From Escherichia coli (lineage in GTDB: Bacteria; Pseudomonadota; Gammaproteobacteria; Enterobacterales; Enterobacteriaceae), in the NCBI RefSeq assembly GCF_017348835.2, contig NZ_CP071375.1: a stretch of DNA of 64,000 bases; one strand, given 5' to 3'. Shown here in pieces: positions 13,128-22,475 of this stretch (its first letter is position 1; each line of letters begins with the position of its first letter). A model generated the notes under the pieces. It did not search any database. It worked only from the letters and a program-made list of their open reading frames with translations, and was not told the DNA's origin. The translations under genes were made by a program, and so were the position numbers.

Positions 13128-14333
13128 TTGAGCAAGACACCACTGACAGCAAAGGCCATAGAGGCCGCACAACCGCAGGACAAGCCCTATAAACTCACCG
13201 ATTCACAGACACCTGGCCTGTTTTTGCTGGTCCATCCCAACGGCAGCAAATACTGGCGATTCCGGTATTGGATAGACAAGAAGGAGCGGTTACAGGCTAT
13301 TGGGGTGTATCCGCTGATTAGCCTCAAGGAAGCCCGCAAACGCGCCACAGAGAGCCGTTTACTGATAGCCCAGGGAATTGACCCAATGGATTTGGCACGC
13401 AAGGAGAAAGCCATTGATGCTCTTAATGCTATCGCCAGTTTTAAAGCTGTAGCAGAAGACTGGATGGCTACCAAGGTGAGCGGATGGAGTGAGAGCTATA
13501 CAAAGCAGGTCAGATCGGCACTAGAGAAAGATGTTTACCCCGTGCTAGGTAAGCGGTCGATAGTGGATATAACGGCCCGTGACGTGCTGGCGTTACTACA
13601 GAAAAAGGAGCGCACCGCACCGGAACAAGCCAGGAAATTACGCCAGCGTATCGGGGAGATCTTCAAATTTGCCGTTATCACTGAACTGGTTAACCGGAAT
13701 CCGGTTGCAGATCTGGATACGGCACTGAAAGCCAGACGCCCAGGCCATAACGCGTGGATACCGATTAATGAAATTCCGGCCTTCTACAAAGCCCTTGAGA
13801 GAGCTGGGAGCGTTCAGATTCAGACGGCAATACTTTTGCTCATCCTCACAGCTTTGAGGACGGCAGAATTGCGCCTGATGCGCTGGGAATGGGTAGATCT
13901 GCAATCGGCAACAATCACATTGCCCGCTGAAGTCATGAAGGCCCGCCGACCGCATGTTGTCCCGCTATCCCGGCAGGCGGTCGAGCTATTACAGGACCAG
14001 TTTACCCGCAGCGGATACAGTGCTTTCGTCTTTCCTGGCCGATTCATGGACAAGCCACTTTCAGCCAGTGCCATCCTTAAAGCCCTGGAGCGTATCGGAT
14101 ACAAGTCGATAGCCACAGGCCACGGCTGGCGGACCACCTTTTCAACGGCGCTTAATGAGTCCGGCAGGTACTCACCAGACTGGATCGAAATCCAACTGGC
14201 CCACGTTCCGAAAGGCGTGCGCGGTGTTTATAACCAGGCGGCCTACCTGAAGCAACGACGGGCCATGATGCAGGATTATAGCGACTGTATTGATTCAATA
14301 CTGGCTGGTGACGGTAATCCACTTGAACCGTGA
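13128..14333 (+). CDS. intZ: P4-family tyrosine site-specific integrase
   Basis: 401-aa ORF; AP2-like N-terminal domain; C-terminal catalytic region with R..HGWR..Y signature (HGWRTTFSTAL, RGVYNQAAY); first island gene beside the left repeat. Confidence 0.88.
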   Translation: MSKTPLTAKAIEAAQPQDKPYKLTDSQTPGLFLLVHPNGSKYWRFRYWIDKKERLQAIGVYPLISLKEARKRATESRLLIAQGIDPMDLARKEKAIDALNAIASFKAVAEDWMATKVSGWSESYTKQVRSALEKDVYPVLGKRSIVDITARDVLALLQKKERTAPEQARKLRQRIGEIFKFAVITELVNRNPVADLDTALKARRPGHNAWIPINEIPAFYKALERAGSVQIQTAILLLILTALRTAELRLMRWEWVDLQSATITLPAEVMKARRPHVVPLSRQAVELLQDQFTRSGYSAFVFPGRFMDKPLSASAILKALERIGYKSIATGHGWRTTFSTALNESGRYSPDWIEIQLAHVPKGVRGVYNQAAYLKQRRAMMQDYSDCIDSILAGDGNPLEP

Positions 14334-14455
14334 ACTATAAGGCCGGGTTTATACTCAATATCGACGGTTGAAGCGCTCAAAAAACAACCGTGACAACCGT
14401 CACAAATATGCAATGTCAATGATCTGAATCAATAAATTGCCAATTCTTCGTTTCC

Positions 14456-14470
14456 ACTTTCGAATGAAAG
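14456..14470. repeat. 15-bp motif actttcgaatgaaag, copy 1 (internal inverted repeat ctttc/gaaag)
   Basis: Exact duplicate of 14591-14605. Confidence 0.7.
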
Positions 14471-14590
14471 CAAGATGCAGAAAAATAAATCACCATGAAA
14501 TCATGTACTTATTAATTTTGACCAAATGGTCCAAAATATCCTCGGTGAATCCATGCTTGCCACAGCCAGATGATTAATATTTAACCCATG

Positions 14591-14605
14591 ACTTTCGAAT
14601 GAAAG
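14591..14605. repeat. 15-bp motif actttcgaatgaaag, copy 2
   Basis: Exact duplicate of 14456-14470, 135 bp away, in AT-rich non-coding DNA. Confidence 0.7.
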
Positions 14606-14733
14606 TAAATTGATAAAAAAGTCAGTGTACACTAACTAAATCGAATATTTTTTGCGCTATGTTTGAATGATAATTGAGCAAAACTTTCGCAAGGTGTGAC
14701 GATGTGAGTAATTAATTTTAACTCTACAATAAA

Positions 14734-14791
14734 CCCATCCCGACAGGGATGGTACCTGGAGCGGAGCGAGAGGGACCATCCCCCTGTTTTT
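14734..14791 (+). terminator. Nested hairpins followed by a T-run (terminator-like; may also act on the minus strand)
   Basis: cccatcccgacagggatgg hairpin overlapping ggatggtacc..N16..gggaccatcc stem, then ccctgttttt. Confidence 0.45.
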
Positions 14792-14884
14792 AGTCTTTTG
14801 AAGTTAGTTTTTTAAGGGATTAAATAATTTTGCCTCAAATGAGACCACACCATACAAGGCCAAAAACAATCAGTATTGCGTGGA

Positions 14885-15400
14885 TCAGGCTGGTTTTTTA
14901 ACTATATACCCCGTATGCCAAGGATTCTGATCGCGCGGCATCGGGTCCGCCTTGATAGACTCATAAAACTTATCAGCCATCTCAGCCACAAACTGTACAG
15001 AGGATTCGAACTCAGCGTTTTTGTGTGCGGGAGGAAACCAGAAGTCTAACACGCCAGCATTTCTATTTTTACATACAGCGTATATAAGATAAGCATCAGA
15101 TGTAGGGGTAACTTTTTCGAAACCACCGGGACCATAACGACCAGTAGACCAGTCATCCCAGCATTGTTCTGTCCCGCTATAGCCGTACTGATTGGTATAA
15201 AGACCAATATTTACATGGACTTTACGTAAGTGGATAGGATATACACACGGGGGTTTATGGAAAAGAGTATCCTTTCCAAAATCAGGATGATGTCCATATC
15301 TCCAATGATAAATAAACGAATCCTTAAAGCTCTTTAATTCATCGTTTGTTTTAAACTTATTATCACTGTAGACCTTACCAATAAATTCATTCTGGACCAT
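14885..15400 (-). CDS. Hypothetical protein (171 aa), distal gene of two-gene island cassette
   Basis: ORF 14885-15403; ATG at 15398-15400; overlaps upstream gene by 14 nt; Trp/Tyr/His-rich, no family recognised. Confidence 0.6.
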   Translation of the reverse strand: MVQNEFIGKVYSDNKFKTNDELKSFKDSFIYHWRYGHHPDFGKDTLFHKPPCVYPIHLRKVHVNIGLYTNQYGYSGTEQCWDDWSTGRYGPGGFEKVTPTSDAYLIYAVCKNRNAGVLDFWFPPAHKNAEFESSVQFVAEMADKFYESIKADPMPRDQNPWHTGYIVKKPA

Positions 15401-15734
15401 CAAAGCTTACACTCTTTAAGCGTTCTTCTCGTGAATCGAATAAATCTTTTGATAAATCACACGCTTGTGTGAACGTCATTTTTTTTACTCGTGGTACAGC
15501 CATAGGCGAGGCCGCATTCATCACTTTGTTTTCTTCGTGATCGAGAGTAGCAGTGTAGCGAAACATGACACTTTTACCGCGCACCAACTGGTATCCTAGT
15601 CGATACGCTAACGCGTCAAGATGCGTCAGACGATTTGTTTTACGCAAGCCAGTCATAGCTTTTGGCTTACGAGTGCGCACAGAAAGGGATTTCCCTTCTC
15701 GCTTAGTCGCAAACAAAGTAACTATTTTTGACAT
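15387..15734 (-). CDS. Hypothetical basic protein (115 aa), proximal gene of two-gene island cassette
   Basis: ATG 15732-15734 preceded by GGAGA RBS; Lys/Arg-rich; stop overlaps start of downstream gene. Confidence 0.55.
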   Translation of the reverse strand: MSKIVTLFATKREGKSLSVRTRKPKAMTGLRKTNRLTHLDALAYRLGYQLVRGKSVMFRYTATLDHEENKVMNAASPMAVPRVKKMTFTQACDLSKDLFDSREERLKSVSFDGPE

Positions 15735-16290
15735 GGTATCTCCTGACATCAATCTGCTAAGGCCATTGTGCCTTGTTTGAATAGTAAACTATTCGCCCAA
15801 TCTACACCAGTGATTTTCTTGACGCCAATAGTAAAGGCAGCATTGCCCACCACAGGCAGACAATGAGACTTCAGATAGCGCACCTTCTATCGCGCACGCG
15901 CTCAATAAAACCAACGACACCGCCATCCTGCCTGACCGATGTTTTTAACCAGCGTATACAGAGAAACAGACAACAGCATGAAATCAGCGTATATCCAGGT
16001 GCAGACGGCACTATCACACAACGCACAGCAGGCTGAGGTGAACACTCAAGCAACTTTATCCCCGCCACCGACCACCGCAAACTATCATGACCGTGCCAAA
16101 TTCAAAAGGAATGGCCCATATAACGCGATGAACACACATAAGCGCTACACTTGCTTACCTGAAAACTTCACAGCGTCACAGCGCGTTTTAGACACGTTAA
16201 AATTAATGAGATTTCATTAAATTTTCACCAGACACCGGAACAAGCCTATAAATCAAAAATGAATTACCGACATGCGCCGCTGGCGTTCAC

Positions 16291-16310
16291 AGGAAGAATC
16301 AATAACTTAG
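16291..16310. repeat. Imperfect direct repeat aggaagaatcaataacttag, copy 1
   Basis: 17/20 identical to 16391-16410, exactly 100 bp downstream. Confidence 0.55.
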
Positions 16311-16390
16311 GCCAATGGCGAAAGTTAAACAAAATCAAGAACTTGCAGAAATGCAGGATGAAGCAGCCGATGTGCCCCGTTGGATTTTAC

Positions 16391-16410
16391 CAGAAGAATC
16401 AACAAGTTAG
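16391..16410. repeat. Imperfect direct repeat cagaagaatcaacaagttag, copy 2
   Basis: See 16291-16310. Confidence 0.55.
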
Positions 16411-16662
16411 ACTCGGTGATTTCACCGACTCCTGCCGGACTACTGACCAGATCGAACCATTCCCCAAATTTGGGGAGAGCAAACCACACGCAGATCCTGC
16501 CAGGCTATTTCATCCCACCGCATCACGTATTTGCACACTTCCCCGCTGACGTGCTCATTTTGATAACGAGTTACCCGCTAGCCCTTGCCACATCACCATT
16601 TGTCGCGCTTTGACTAAATTAGCGACGTGCCTGTTATAGCGATACGCTAGTTATGCAGAAAG

Positions 16663-16682
16663 CGCGACATATCCAGCAACCA
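16663..16682. repeat. Exact 20-bp direct repeat cgcgacatatccagcaacca, copy 1
   Basis: Identical to 16790-16809; lies just upstream of the 16707 ORF start. Confidence 0.7.
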
Positions 16683-16706: not shown

Positions 16707-17159
16707 ATGCGAGACATAGACTGGTCAGCTATCCCTTTCGATGATTTACCGCCCTGGCATCTGGACTGGGACGTAGACCAACGCGAAAACGCGACATATC
16801 CAGCAACCACCAGCATTACAGCGATGCGCCCCGTAAAGCCTAAGAAATACCAGGCAACCGACCTGATAGCTCACCTCAAAGCTATTGGCGGCGTATTTAC
16901 CGGAAGCAAAGACACGCTTGCACATGAAGTATGGCCCCGGAAGACGCCAGCGGGTCGAACCGTTTTACGCTTACTGACCGAACTGTCAGACAACGGCGAC
17001 GCTGTAGTGATTAACCGTGGTCGTTGTGGCGTGGAAGTTATTCTGACGCCGAAGAACAGGGCACAGACGCCTGAATTAAGCGCACCCAAGCAAATGCATA
17101 GCCAAAAATTAAGTCCAGCAGAACGCGTTATATCGCTTTTAAATGGCATCGGATTTTAA
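16707..17159 (+). CDS. Hypothetical protein (150 aa)
   Basis: ORF with GAGG RBS about 10 nt upstream of the ATG; non-repetitive composition; no family recognised. Confidence 0.5.
   Translation: MRDIDWSAIPFDDLPPWHLDWDVDQRENATYPATTSITAMRPVKPKKYQATDLIAHLKAIGGVFTGSKDTLAHEVWPRKTPAGRTVLRLLTELSDNGDAVVINRGRCGVEVILTPKNRAQTPELSAPKQMHSQKLSPAERVISLLNGIGF
16790..16809. repeat. Exact 20-bp direct repeat cgcgacatatccagcaacca, copy 2
   Basis: Inside the 5' end of the 16707 ORF; 127 bp from copy 1. Confidence 0.7.
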
Positions 17160-17185
17160 TTAATTTTGATGTGGTAATTGCAGGC

Positions 17186-17213: not shown

Positions 17214-17446
17214 AGTGAAATCAATCGTTGTAGTTATAGATCACATTTTGGAGTTGAGGATGGCTAATCCTCGCTAATATTATCGCGCCGTTATGTGATG
17301 GGCGCAATTATTTCTTACTAATTAAAAGTTTTGTAAATATTACAGAATATCCCTTTTCACTATATGGTAAAAGATGTGAAACAGGGACATGAGGAATATA
17401 ATATTAAGTATCAACAGTAATGTTGGTCTTTAATTTCATTCAGGGC

Positions 17447-17490
17447 GCGGTGAGGGTTTTCTCCATATTTTTCCTCACCGCTACTTTTTC
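17447..17490 (+). terminator. Terminator/attenuator-like hairpin immediately upstream of the AlpA-like gene
   Basis: gcggtgagg..N17..cctcaccgc stem then tactttttc; a third complementary segment gaggtgag overlaps the RBS of the next gene. Confidence 0.45.
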
Positions 17491-17501
17491 GAGGTGAGAA
17501 C

Positions 17502-17693
17502 ATGAATGATAGCGAATTAATGACGGTGAACGAGGTAGCCGCTTTATTCGGCGTTACCCGTCGGACAATATTCCGGTGGATGAACAAGATTAAAGGCTGG
17601 CCCGTCCCGGTCAGTCCGATTGGCTCAAGAATTAAGTTTATCCGATCTGAGATTTTGGAATTCTATAAAAACAAAGGCGCTCGCCACCAATGA
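17502..17693 (+). CDS. AlpA/Xis-like small DNA-binding regulator (phage transcriptional regulator family)
   Basis: 63-aa ORF with HTH-like segment VNEVAALFGVTRRTIFRWM; GAGGTGA RBS. Confidence 0.65.
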   Translation: MNDSELMTVNEVAALFGVTRRTIFRWMNKIKGWPVPVSPIGSRIKFIRSEILEFYKNKGARHQ

Positions 17694-22315: not shown

Positions 22316-22426
22316 TGTTCTTTCTTTTTTTGTTTTTTATTTTTTTATTTTCTCTTTTTCTTCTCTTTCCGGTTCTCTTCTTTTTCTGGTTTTGGTTTTT
22401 TCCTTTTTTATTTTTATTCTTTCTTC
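22316..22426. repeat. ~110-nt homopyrimidine (T/C-rich) low-complexity tract
   Basis: About 90% pyrimidine on the top strand by eye; no plausible coding frame. Confidence 0.7.
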
Positions 22427-22475
22427 AGGGTTGTGATCAAACACACCAAAACATTTTCGCCACAAAAGCGTTAAT

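What the first reader, a model, noticed from the sequence alone, without database searches (positions are those of the whole stretch)
14734..14791. Nested, mutually exclusive hairpins ending in a T-run: terminator or structured RNA element
cccatcccgacagggatgg forms a 6-bp hairpin whose 3' half (ggatgg) is also the 5' end of a longer stem ggatggtacc..N16..gggaccatcc, followed by ccctgttttt. On the plus strand this looks like an intrinsic terminator, possibly ending a small RNA from the AT-rich region; on the minus strand the inner hairpin plus gtttattgt could terminate the two-gene cassette. Alternative pairings suggest a switchable structure.
Basis: seen in the sequence. Interest (0 to 1): 0.45.

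Follow-up and report, generated by a model that had tools for sequence, protein, structure and literature searches.

The report
Variable-copy three-arm hairpin beside integrase
A small GC-rich DNA/RNA hairpin with three mutually exclusive arms, followed by a T-run, marks the end of a conserved non-coding block next to the intZ integrase of a rare E. coli island. It is real and its structure is conserved, but it is most likely an ordinary terminator-type stem-loop that is also a hotspot for replication slippage (0 to 4 copies).

Summary
CCATCCC (14735-41), GGGATGG(T) (14746-53) and (A)CCATCCC (14775-82) form a 7-bp hairpin or, exclusively, an 8+3-bp hairpin, followed by CCTG and T5. This is the only such site in the window; shuffles give 0.04.

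It lies in E. coli, at the right edge of a ~475-bp AT-rich non-coding block. The block sits between intZ (island in the eutB/eutA gap) and variable cargo, here a YafO toxin cassette.

Two new facts emerged:
- **Copy number.** The element is a 41-bp unit present in 0, 1, 2, 3 or 4 copies in related islands. Extra units always carry the 4-nt loop inverted. This fits fold-back template switching during replication.
- **A diverged allele.** ATCC 8739-type strains (16 genomes) keep both hairpins and the T-run. The long stem shows three compensatory pair changes and the short stem one.

There is no Rfam match, no dispersed copies and no homologue outside E. coli.

Best reading (about 0.4): a plus-strand RNA stem-loop plus U-run that ends a transcript, probably a short one starting just upstream. 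A weaker minus-strand terminator uses the short hairpin. Folding predicts that long through-transcripts adopt the wrong register in both directions. A regulatory switch is neither shown nor excluded. No transcript data exist. Modest interest.

The parts
14343..14818 (.). Conserved AT-rich non-coding block between intZ and the variable cargo. The hairpin element forms its right edge.
   Evidence: Found in 51 of 5426 complete E. coli genomes, always after intZ, plus one plasmid. Homology between islands with different cargo ends at about 14816-14818. Variable sites show no codon periodicity and there is no conserved ORF. GC is 27-40%.
14735..14775 (+). The 41-bp repeat unit: arm 1, 4-nt loop, arm 2, then a 23-nt segment. 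There is one copy here and 0-4 copies in related islands.
   Evidence: Searches give the copy numbers (0: L009, L019; 2: L006; 3: L007, L031; 4: L008). One search shows the unit occurs only at this locus.
14735..14741 (+). Arm 1 (CCATCCC). It pairs with arm 2 to give the short hairpin.
   Evidence: One compensatory change relative to type B.
14742..14745 (+). 4-nt loop (GACA). Other alleles carry it in both orientations: GACA/TGTC and GTCA/TGAC.
14746..14753 (+). Arm 2 (GGGATGGT), the central arm shared by both hairpins.
14754..14774 (+). Interior of the long hairpin. It comprises the A.G mismatch (14754/14774), the inner stem CCT/AGG (14755-57 / 14771-73) and the purine apex GGAGCGGAGCGAG (14758-14770), with core GCGNAGC at 14761-14767.
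   Evidence: MFE of the isolated hairpin. The inner stem covaries (T:A to A:T) in type B. The central N is seen as G, T, A and C. The GCGNAGC mini-hairpin motif is described in PMC13037366.
14775..14782 (+). Arm 3 (ACCATCCC). It pairs with arm 2 to give the long hairpin.
14783..14791 (+). CCTG spacer and T5 run (14787-14791). This is the plus-strand U-tract. The C-run and spacer length vary between alleles (CCTG, CTGG, TGG).
   Evidence: The T-run is kept in type B.
14725..14734 (-). A-rich flank, which reads GTTTATTGTA on the minus strand. This is the U-rich tail after the minus-strand short hairpin.
   Evidence: Flagged as terminator-like. The type B equivalent, TTATTAGTTT, is flagged.
14702..14730 (+). 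Candidate weak sigma-70 promoter, ATGTGA-17-TACAAT. It would start transcription at about A14737, inside arm 1.
   Evidence: My own scan scores it 8 of 12. Type B has ATGTAA-17-TAAACT at the same place (read). This is the most conserved stretch among type A alleles. It is an inference, not a demonstrated promoter.
14378..14405 (-). Terminator-like hairpin GTGACGGTTGTCAC followed by TTGTTTTTTG at the left edge of the block, on the minus strand.
   Evidence: Not conserved in the L002 and L009 variants.
13128..14333 (+). intZ, a tyrosine integrase of the island inserted between eutB and eutA.
14885..15734 (-). Cargo cassette convergent with the block: a YafO-family toxin (14885-15400) and its 115-aa partner (15387-15734).
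   Evidence: RefSeq annotation of the identical locus. The toxin matches phrog_1651.

Best explanation
The element is a cis-acting RNA stem-loop on the plus strand. The long hairpin (arm 2, purine apex, arm 3) plus the following U-run is a Rho-independent terminator-type 3' end that closes the conserved non-coding block next to intZ.

It most likely ends a very short transcript of about 55 nt in one-copy alleles. That transcript would start at a weak promoter immediately upstream (ATGTGA-17-TACAAT), inside arm 1. Only such a transcript folds almost entirely into the terminator register.

Arm 1 plus the A-rich left flank gives a second, weaker terminator-like hairpin for minus-strand transcripts, for example those from the YafO cassette. 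The site would therefore act as a two-way boundary.

The 0-4 copy variation and the flipped loops are not part of the function. They are by-products of fold-back template switching and slippage at the palindrome during DNA replication.

**Shown:** the anatomy, the energies, conservation of the pairing, the copy-number and loop-flip pattern, and restriction to this one locus.

**Inferred:** that the region is transcribed, on which strand, where the transcript starts, and that termination occurs.
For: **Structure is kept across divergence.**
- Type B (ATCC 8739 and 15 other genomes) differs from type A at 12 of 48 element positions, within a segment that is 59-75% identical.
- All 11 pairs of the long stem remain standard pairs. 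Three are changed on both sides and one goes from G-C to G-U. No shuffle out of 500 reaches this, and slid registers drop to 44-63% paired.
- The short stem has one compensatory change.

**U-tracts are kept.** A T-run follows the long stem in both types. A U-rich tail follows the short stem on the minus strand in both types, and the scan flags it each time.

**The plus strand looks like the structured strand.** The mismatches and apex are all purine there (A.G, tandem GA, GCGNAGC with a free N). The one wobble is G.U on plus but A.C on minus.

**Register depends on the start point.**
- An RNA starting at 14737 has P(long) = 0.998.
- RNAs starting at 14681 or 14600 have P(long) = 0.03-0.29.

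**Location.** The element always sits at the boundary where conserved block meets variable cargo.

**Candidate promoter.** Hexamers with 17-nt spacing and an A at position +7 occur at the same place in both types.

**Repeat variation is explained without invoking function.** In two independent loop lineages, unit 1 carries loop L and all later units carry its reverse complement. This turns the stem into a 19-bp perfect inverted repeat, as fold-back priming predicts. Template switching is known to invert spacers and homogenise arms (PMC8604942, and 10.1101/2021.04.15.439925).
Against: - No transcript, 5' end or 3' end data exist for this locus.
- The candidate promoter has a poor -35 (3 of 6), and the stricter scan finds no promoter here.
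- The plus-strand T-run begins 3-5 nt after the stem. It abuts the stem only through a bulged 3-bp extension that is lost when the loop is flipped.
- For long transcripts, folding favours the non-terminator register in both directions.
- Two alleles have lost the whole unit without other damage to the island.
- Covariation rests on only two lineages. Template switching can itself create matched changes in palindrome arms without selection.
- Apex conservation between the types (11-12 of 13) is only marginally above the 60-75% background.
- No target for a small RNA was found.
Confidence: 0.4

Rival explanations
1. It is a two-way insulator for long transcripts. The element stops read-through from intZ or the block on the plus strand, and from cargo such as the YafO operon on the minus strand. 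It has no dedicated short transcript.
For: U-rich tracts follow a hairpin on both strands in both allele types. The element sits between convergent units in the window. The window-type intZ has no terminator of its own, whereas the other intZ variant has GCCGGATTCGTCCGGC+T right after the gene.
Against: With the last 8 nt held unpaired, plus-strand transcripts from upstream give P(long) of only 0.03-0.29. Minus-strand transcripts from 14884 or 14830 give P(short) of only 0.05-0.21. The first-made hairpin is the wrong one in both directions. The element is kept in islands with no minus-strand cargo and with an intZ terminator already present.
Confidence: 0.22
2. It is a regulatory switch. The short hairpin acts as an anti-terminator of the long hairpin plus U-run. 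Read-through into the plus-strand cargo then depends on where the transcript starts, on a factor that binds arm 1 or the apex, or on the heritable copy number of the unit (a contingency locus).
For: Both alternative helices are kept in the diverged allele; one position covaries in all three arms. The predicted register flips with the start point and with copy number. One and four copies leave a stem next to the U-run, whereas two and three copies do not. In many islands the next genes are co-directional.
Against: No leader peptide, aptamer or Rfam family was found. In the window the next gene is convergent. The loop of the short hairpin is free to flip, so no loop-specific factor binds it. The three-arm layout is what template switching produces anyway. 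The covariation in the short helix is a single pair, reached by 49 of 500 shuffles.
Confidence: 0.1
3. It functions at the DNA level. One possibility is a hairpin extruded in single-stranded DNA that is used for priming, nicking or recombination. Another is a palindromic binding site, repeated every 41 bp, for an island protein.
For: The apex core GCGNAGC, with any N, is the very stable DNA mini-hairpin motif linked to single-strand priming sites in the phage G4 origin and in ssiA (PMC13037366). The loop flips and fold-back duplications show that the DNA hairpin forms in vivo at least occasionally. The 41-bp period is about four helical turns. The F plasmid sopC site has 43-bp repeats with 7-bp inverted repeats (from my own knowledge).
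Against: The island encodes no recognisable Rep/HUH, primase or ParB/SopB protein. Most of its proteins match no family. Most alleles have one copy and some have none. A third unpaired half-site makes little sense for a dimeric binder. Nothing suggests the island passes through a single-stranded stage.
Confidence: 0.1
4. It has no function. It is a quasi-palindromic minisatellite kept complementary by template-switch mutation and simply tolerated in non-coding DNA.
For: Copy number ranges from 0 to 4. There are loop inversions, a variable C-run, and two independent complete losses. Template switching can create and maintain hairpins without selection (10.1101/2021.04.15.439925).
Against: The A.G mismatch and the purine internal loop are not corrected to perfect pairs in either type. 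The inner stem CCT/AGG, which lies outside the repeated arms, also covaries. The T-run persists. Among type A alleles this is the most conserved 100 nt of the block, with 12 variable columns per 100 against 38 per 100 in the rest.
Confidence: 0.15

Closest known systems
Rho-independent (intrinsic) transcription terminators, including bidirectional ones
   Same: A GC-rich stem-loop followed by a T-run, with an A-rich tract on the other side. It sits at a boundary between transcription units. The stem is maintained by compensatory changes.
   Different: There are three arms instead of two, so each direction has its own hairpin sharing a central arm. The plus-strand T-run is offset by 3-5 nt. The 'loop' is a 21-nt structured purine apex. 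Folding predicts poor formation in long transcripts.
Terminator/anti-terminator attenuators (trp-type leaders, riboswitch expression platforms) and the lambda tI/sib site downstream of int
   Same: Mutually exclusive 1:2 and 2:3 pairings, with the 2:3 pairing followed by a U-run. The site lies downstream of an integrase gene. The outcome plausibly depends on which promoter made the transcript, as at tI/sib (from my own knowledge).
   Different: No leader ORF, aptamer or known protein site is present. No RNase III-type long duplex forms in one-copy alleles. There is no att site between int and the element. The downstream gene is convergent in the window.
Quasi-palindrome template-switch hotspots (spacer inversion, arm homogenisation, inverted-repeat expansion)
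   Same: Loops are found in both orientations. Added units carry the reverse-complement loop. The inverted repeat grows from 8 to 19 bp. Units are deleted between 7-bp direct repeats.
   Different: Here the process has produced a tandem array with a 41-bp period at a site that also shows signs of structural constraint.
d(GCGNAGC) mini-hairpin motif at single-strand priming sites (G4 origin, ssiA)
   Same: The exact heptamer sits at the tip of the long hairpin. N is free to vary and all four bases are seen.
   Different: Nothing here points to a single-stranded replication stage or a cognate primase. The motif may simply cap an RNA stem.
Tandem-repeat RNAs and DNA sites (ToxI antitoxin repeats, sopC centromere repeats, REP/BIME)
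   Same: Short units of about 36-43 nt, each with an internal inverted repeat, in a variable number of tandem copies.
   Different: No co-directional toxin gene follows. No partition proteins are encoded. It is a single locus rather than hundreds of copies. Most alleles have one copy.

Membership tests
Intrinsic terminator | GC-rich stem-loop of about 5-14 bp | tested here: met
   Short hairpin: 7 bp, -12.2 (plus) and -11.3 (minus) kcal/mol. Long hairpin: 8+3 bp, -19.2 (plus) kcal/mol.
Intrinsic terminator | U-tract starting 0-2 nt after the stem | tested here: inconclusive
   Minus strand: met, flagged. Plus strand: the T-run starts 3-5 nt after the stem. It is adjacent only through a bulged CAG/CTG extension, which is absent in flipped-loop alleles.
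Intrinsic terminator | The hairpin next to the U-tract forms in the nascent RNA | tested here: inconclusive
   Equilibrium folding with 8 nt held unpaired. Plus strand: P(long) is 0.998 if the RNA starts at 14737 but 0.03-0.29 from upstream. Minus strand: P(short) is 0.88 from 14800 but 0.05-0.21 from further away.
Intrinsic terminator | RNA 3' ends map in the U-tract | not testable with these tools
   No transcript data are available. No paper with such data for a carrier strain was found.
Transcription attenuator / riboswitch | Mutually exclusive terminator and anti-terminator helices | tested here: met
   Arm 2 is shared by both helices. Both helices are kept in type B.
Transcription attenuator / riboswitch | A sensing part upstream (leader peptide, aptamer or known protein site) | tested here: not met
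   No Rfam match at E<10 over the element. No conserved small ORF and no codon periodicity.
Transcription attenuator / riboswitch | A regulated co-directional gene downstream | tested here: inconclusive
   The next gene is convergent (YafO cassette) in the window. Co-directional small genes or an HTH gene follow in other islands.
REP/BIME or MITE-type dispersed palindromic repeats | Many copies dispersed in the genome | tested here: not met
   The unit is found only at this locus, in 34 of 5426 genomes. There is one site in the window. Only chance hits turn up in 100,044 species genomes and in viral contigs.
Type III toxin-antitoxin RNA repeats (ToxI-like) | A tandem repeat array followed by a co-directional toxin endoribonuclease gene | tested here: not met
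   Most alleles have one copy. The downstream gene is convergent or unrelated. PADLOC gives no hit for the neighbouring proteins.
Partition-site repeats (sopC/parS-like) | A cognate ParB/SopB-type binding protein encoded by the element | tested here: not met
   No such family appears among the 10 proteins of the island searched: nine island genes plus the intZ integrase.
Quasi-palindrome template-switch hotspot | Spacer inversion and inverted-repeat expansion between alleles | tested here: met
   Loops occur as GACA/TGTC and GTCA/TGAC. Arrays always have loop L in unit 1 and its reverse complement in later units, in two independent lineages. This gives a 19-bp perfect stem.
GCGNAGC mini-hairpin motif | The heptamer GCGNAGC with any N | tested here: met
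   Present at 14761-14767, with N seen as G, T, A and C across alleles. The motif is as defined in PMC13037366. Only the sequence motif was tested, not its role.

The most novel reading that the evidence does not exclude
The three-arm repeat is a register switch that controls transcription across the integrase/cargo boundary. Transcripts that start inside arm 1 fold into long hairpins and stop at the U-run, yielding a small hairpin RNA with one conserved purine apex per unit. Transcripts from upstream fold into the short-hairpin register and read through. Heritable gain and loss of 41-bp units by template switching would then toggle the terminator: predicted on with 1 or 4 copies, off with 0, 2 or 3. 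That would make it a contingency locus for expression of island cargo.
Probability: 0.1. Interest if true: 0.6.

Novelty: new member of a known kind. Interest (0 to 1): 0.33.

Why it matters
If the main reading holds, this is one more terminator-type stem-loop, possibly a tiny RNA gene, in a rare cryptic island. It has little wider consequence.

Its value is as a clean natural example of two things:
- **Copy-number change by template switching.** Fold-back template switching builds, flips, expands and deletes a hairpin repeat, with 0-4 copies and loops inverted in a fixed pattern.
- **A caveat for structure prediction.** The same process can mimic the compensatory changes usually taken as proof of a selected RNA structure.

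The less likely register-switch reading would link a mutational hotspot to control of read-through into island cargo. That idea could be tested directly with reporter fusions of the natural alleles.

Tried and rejected
- **Known RNA family.** Rfam at E up to 10 gives nothing on the element in the window or in the type B locus.
- **Dispersed repeat or mobile element.** Exact-pattern scans of viral contigs and of 100,044 species genomes, and BLAST against phages and plasmids, gave only chance hits plus one plasmid with a 0-copy allele. The unit is confined to one locus in E. coli.
- **Hidden small protein or type I toxin in the block.** Variable sites show no codon periodicity, and there is no conserved or hydrophobic small ORF. 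The 40-aa minus-strand ORF across the hairpin would be frameshifted by the 41-bp copy changes.
- **Link to the YafO cassette or a defence system.** PADLOC gives no hits. The hairpin is present without the cassette.
- **More diverged homologues via integrase relatives.** Relatives at 67-69% identity have no such block after int. A covariance model of the element found no further copies in any held locus.
- **A base-pairing target of the apex.** Matches in the window equal chance.
- **CsrA-type GGA loops.** The GGA motifs are not conserved; most alleles read AGAGCGTAGCG.
- **Integrase arm sites or att.** The island's att sites lie upstream of intZ and at the eutA end. Nothing shares repeats with the element.
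- **Strong promoters in the block.** None was found by the consensus scan. Only 8-of-12 matches came from a looser scan.
- **Literature.** Nothing was found on this sequence, on CPZ-55/intZ non-coding RNAs, or on transcript maps of ATCC 8739.

Full report
**1. What is there**

- Arm 1, CCATCCC (14735-41), pairs with arm 2, GGGATGG (14746-52), over a GACA loop. This gives 7 bp and -12.2 kcal/mol as RNA.
- Arm 2, extended by T14753, also pairs with arm 3, ACCATCCC (14775-82). An A.G mismatch follows, then a further CCT/AGG stem. These enclose a 13-nt purine apex, GGAGCGGAGCGAG. This hairpin gives -19.2 kcal/mol.
- After arm 3 come CCTG and a T5 run (14787-91).
- On the minus strand, the short hairpin is followed by GTTTATTGTA.

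The two hairpins share arm 2 and cannot coexist. Whole-region folding z-scores are unremarkable (-1.3 and -1.45). The three-arm layout, however, is unique in the 64-kb window and is expected 0.04 times in dinucleotide shuffles.

**2. Where it is**

The window is E. coli.
- The element lies in a ~550-nt gap between intZ (13128-14333, plus strand) and a convergent two-gene cassette. The cassette is a YafO-family toxin (14885-15400) and a 115-aa partner (15387-15734).
- intZ is the tyrosine integrase of a ~9-kb island inserted between eutB and eutA, the CPZ-55 site of K-12.
- The island looks like a decayed phage-like element. It has an excisionase-like HTH protein, several unknown proteins and a tape-measure-like protein.

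The gap is mostly one conserved AT-rich non-coding block, about 14343-14818.
- The block is present in 51 of 5426 complete E. coli genomes, always after intZ. It also occurs once on an IncFIB plasmid in a different context.
- Islands with different cargo are homologous up to about 14816-14818, roughly 25 nt past the T-run, and then diverge.
- The block shows no codon periodicity and no conserved small ORF.
- K-12's own CPZ-55 lacks it.

The hairpin therefore belongs to this block, not to the YafO cassette. It is present in islands that have no such cassette.

**3. The element is a 41-bp unit of variable copy number**

I anchored on the flanks TCTACAATAAA and TTTTAGTC and compared related loci.

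| Copies | Where found |
|---|---|
| 0 | Strain PSJ-23 (its island is 98.7% identical over the ~570-bp intZ-to-cassette gap compared, and carries the same YafO cassette); the plasmid |
| 1 | Most genomes; nine metagenome contigs |
| 2 | KSC9 |
| 3 | 1504D004 and its twin; one metagenome contig |
| 4 | ES5 |

- The unit is CCATCCC-N4-GGGATGG-TACCTRGAGCGNAGCGAGAGGGA, closed by a final CCATCCC.
- The arms are invariant. The 4-nt loop occurs in both orientations (GACA/TGTC and GTCA/TGAC).
- In every array, in both loop lineages, unit 1 carries loop L and all later units carry its reverse complement.

That pattern is what a fold-back template switch predicts:
1. The nascent strand a-L-a'-S-a pairs its 3' arm with its own a'.
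2. It copies L' and a' from itself.
3. It returns to the template, giving a-L-a'-S-a-L'-a'-S-a.

The result is an expanded perfect inverted repeat of 19 bp around the apex. Slippage can then add units. Recombination between the 7-bp direct repeats removes them, which explains the 0-copy alleles and the single-copy flipped-loop allele. The C-run after the last arm also varies in length.

Spacer inversion and arm homogenisation by template switching are documented (PMC8604942; 10.1101/2021.04.15.439925).

The unit is not a dispersed repeat.
- It occurs only at this locus, in 34 genomes.
- It is absent from phage records and viral contigs.
- Pattern scans of 100,044 species genomes gave only chance hits.

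**4. A diverged allele keeps the structure**

Sixteen genomes, including ATCC 8739, share the block up to about 14690. They then carry a roughly 60-75% identical version of the last ~150 bp.

There the element reads CACCCC-GTCA-GGGGTGG-A-A-CCA-GGAGCGCAGCGAG-TGG-G-T-CCACCC-T, followed by CCTTG and T5.

On an ungapped alignment of nine distinct alleles:
- All 11 pairs of the long stem are standard pairs in all sequences.
- Three pairs are changed on both sides (A:U to G:C, U:A to A:U, and the inner-stem U:A to A:U). One goes from G:C to G:U.
- No shuffle out of 500 reaches this, and slid registers fall to 44-63% paired.
- The short stem has one compensatory change and loses its outermost pair.
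- The A.G mismatch, the purine apex and the T-run are retained.
- The central apex base is G, T, A or C in different alleles.

On the plus strand the apex reads as CCU/AGG stem, purine-purine pairs, and then GC-GNA-GC. The heptamer GCGNAGC, with any N, is the known very stable mini-hairpin motif (PMC13037366). Together with the G.U wobble, which would be A.C on the other strand, this makes the plus strand the better-structured one.

Three caveats apply:
- There are only two lineages.
- Apex conservation (11-12 of 13) is only marginally above background.
- Template switching can generate matched arm changes without selection.

**5. What folding says about termination**

The consensus scan flags the minus-strand short hairpin with its U-rich tail as terminator-like. 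This holds in the window, in another type A island and in type B. It does not flag the plus-strand site, because the loop is long and the T-run starts 3-5 nt after the stem.

I folded nascent RNAs with the last 8 nt held unpaired.

| Strand | RNA start | P(short hairpin) | P(long hairpin) |
|---|---|---|---|
| plus | 14600 or 14681 | 0.71-0.96 | 0.03-0.29 |
| plus | 14737 (inside arm 1) | about 0 | 0.998 |
| minus | 14884 or 14830 | 0.05-0.21 | 0.79-0.93 |
| minus | 14800 | 0.88 | 0.12 |

- For long through-transcripts, the hairpin next to the U-tract is out-competed in both directions. It is also the second one to be made.
- In an RNA that starts inside arm 1, the long hairpin is essentially the only structure.
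- A weak promoter-like pair sits at the right distance in both allele types. It is ATGTGA-17-TACAAT at 14702-14730, and ATGTAA-17-TAAACT in type B. Each has an A seven bases after the -10 hexamer, inside arm 1.
- This stretch is the most conserved part of the block among type A alleles.
- The -35 match is poor, and the stricter scan reports no promoter.

**6. Interpretation**

I commit, at about 0.4, to a plus-strand RNA stem-loop plus U-run that ends a transcript at the edge of the non-coding block. Most probably this is a ~55-nt transcript from the adjacent weak promoter. The short hairpin and A-rich flank would give a weaker stop for minus-strand transcripts. The copy-number variation and flipped loops are mutational by-products.

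The rivals are:

| Rival | Confidence |
|---|---|
| Two-way insulator for long transcripts | 0.22 |
| True switch or contingency locus | 0.10 |
| DNA-level role (single-strand hairpin or protein-binding repeats) | 0.10 |
| Tolerated quasi-palindromic minisatellite with no function | 0.15 |

None can be settled without transcript mapping or reporters. I found no such data.

**7. Comparison with known systems**

The element works like an intrinsic terminator, but it is an atypical one. It has three arms, an offset T-run and a structured apex.

Defining features it fails:
- **Attenuators and riboswitches:** no sensor.
- **REP/MITE repeats:** a single locus.
- **ToxI-type repeats:** no co-directional toxin gene.
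- **Partition sites:** no partner protein.

It matches no Rfam family. It does meet the features of a template-switch hotspot. I class it as a new member of a known kind and of modest interest. The most novel reading still open is a register switch coupled to heritable copy number.

Noticed in passing
window 17440-17505: The excisionase/AlpA-like HTH gene (17502-17693) is preceded by a strong hairpin, GCGGTGAGG...CCTCACCGC, and a T-run that ends only a few bases before its Shine-Dalgarno sequence and ATG. This leaves no room for a promoter and looks like an attenuator. It produced weak LhrC and STnc430 Rfam hits. The plasmid locus L009 (about 2050-2105) has the same layout before its HTH gene.
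   Followed up: partly
window 14456-14485 and 14591-14620: Two copies of a 30-nt direct repeat, each starting with the palindrome ACTTTCGAATGAAAG. The palindrome is invariant across most alleles while its flanks vary. It may be a protein-binding site in the non-coding block.
   Followed up: partly
window 14520-14531: A conserved 12-bp palindrome, GACCAAATGGTC (GACCAACTGGTC in other alleles), lies inside the block and looks like an operator.
   Followed up: no
window 14378-14405: A minus-strand terminator-like hairpin, GTGACGGTTGTCAC followed by TTGTTTTTTG, sits just downstream of the intZ stop codon. With the hairpin element it brackets the block on the minus strand. It is missing in the L002-type and plasmid variants.
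   Followed up: partly
window 14511-14522, 14711-14722, 17159-17170; inverted at 16196-16207: The motif ATTAATTTTRAY recurs four times in the island. One copy overlaps the only consensus promoter match (GTCACA-17-TAAAAT at 16175-16203). It could be a shared operator or just AT-rich promoter-like sequence.
   Followed up: no
window about 14846-15853: The YafO toxin cassette is about 1 kb and is absent from otherwise collinear islands such as L003. The 8-mer AATGAGAC is repeated at 14838-14845 and at 15862-15869, close to the insertion boundaries. A different, shorter YafO gene occupies the same place in L002-type islands.
   Followed up: partly
window 22319-22434: A ~115-nt pyrimidine-rich, T-dominated low-complexity tract lies near the eutA end of the island, next to repeated CCGGATACAC motifs (22067, 22503). 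It may be part of the attachment-site arm.
   Followed up: no
window 16267-16310 / 16367-16410 and 16658-16682 / 16785-16809: Two pairs of direct repeats lie in the region upstream of and inside the 150-aa gene at 16707. One pair is 44 nt at 75% identity, 100 nt apart. The other is 25 nt at 96% identity, 127 nt apart. The second pair reads GAAAGCGCGACATATCCAGCAACCA.
   Followed up: no
L005, L006, L015-L017, L021, and K-12 L022:3666-3690: intZ comes in two 3'-end variants. One, including K-12, has its own canonical terminator, GCCGGATTCGTCCGGC followed by T's. The window's variant has none before the non-coding block.
   Followed up: partly
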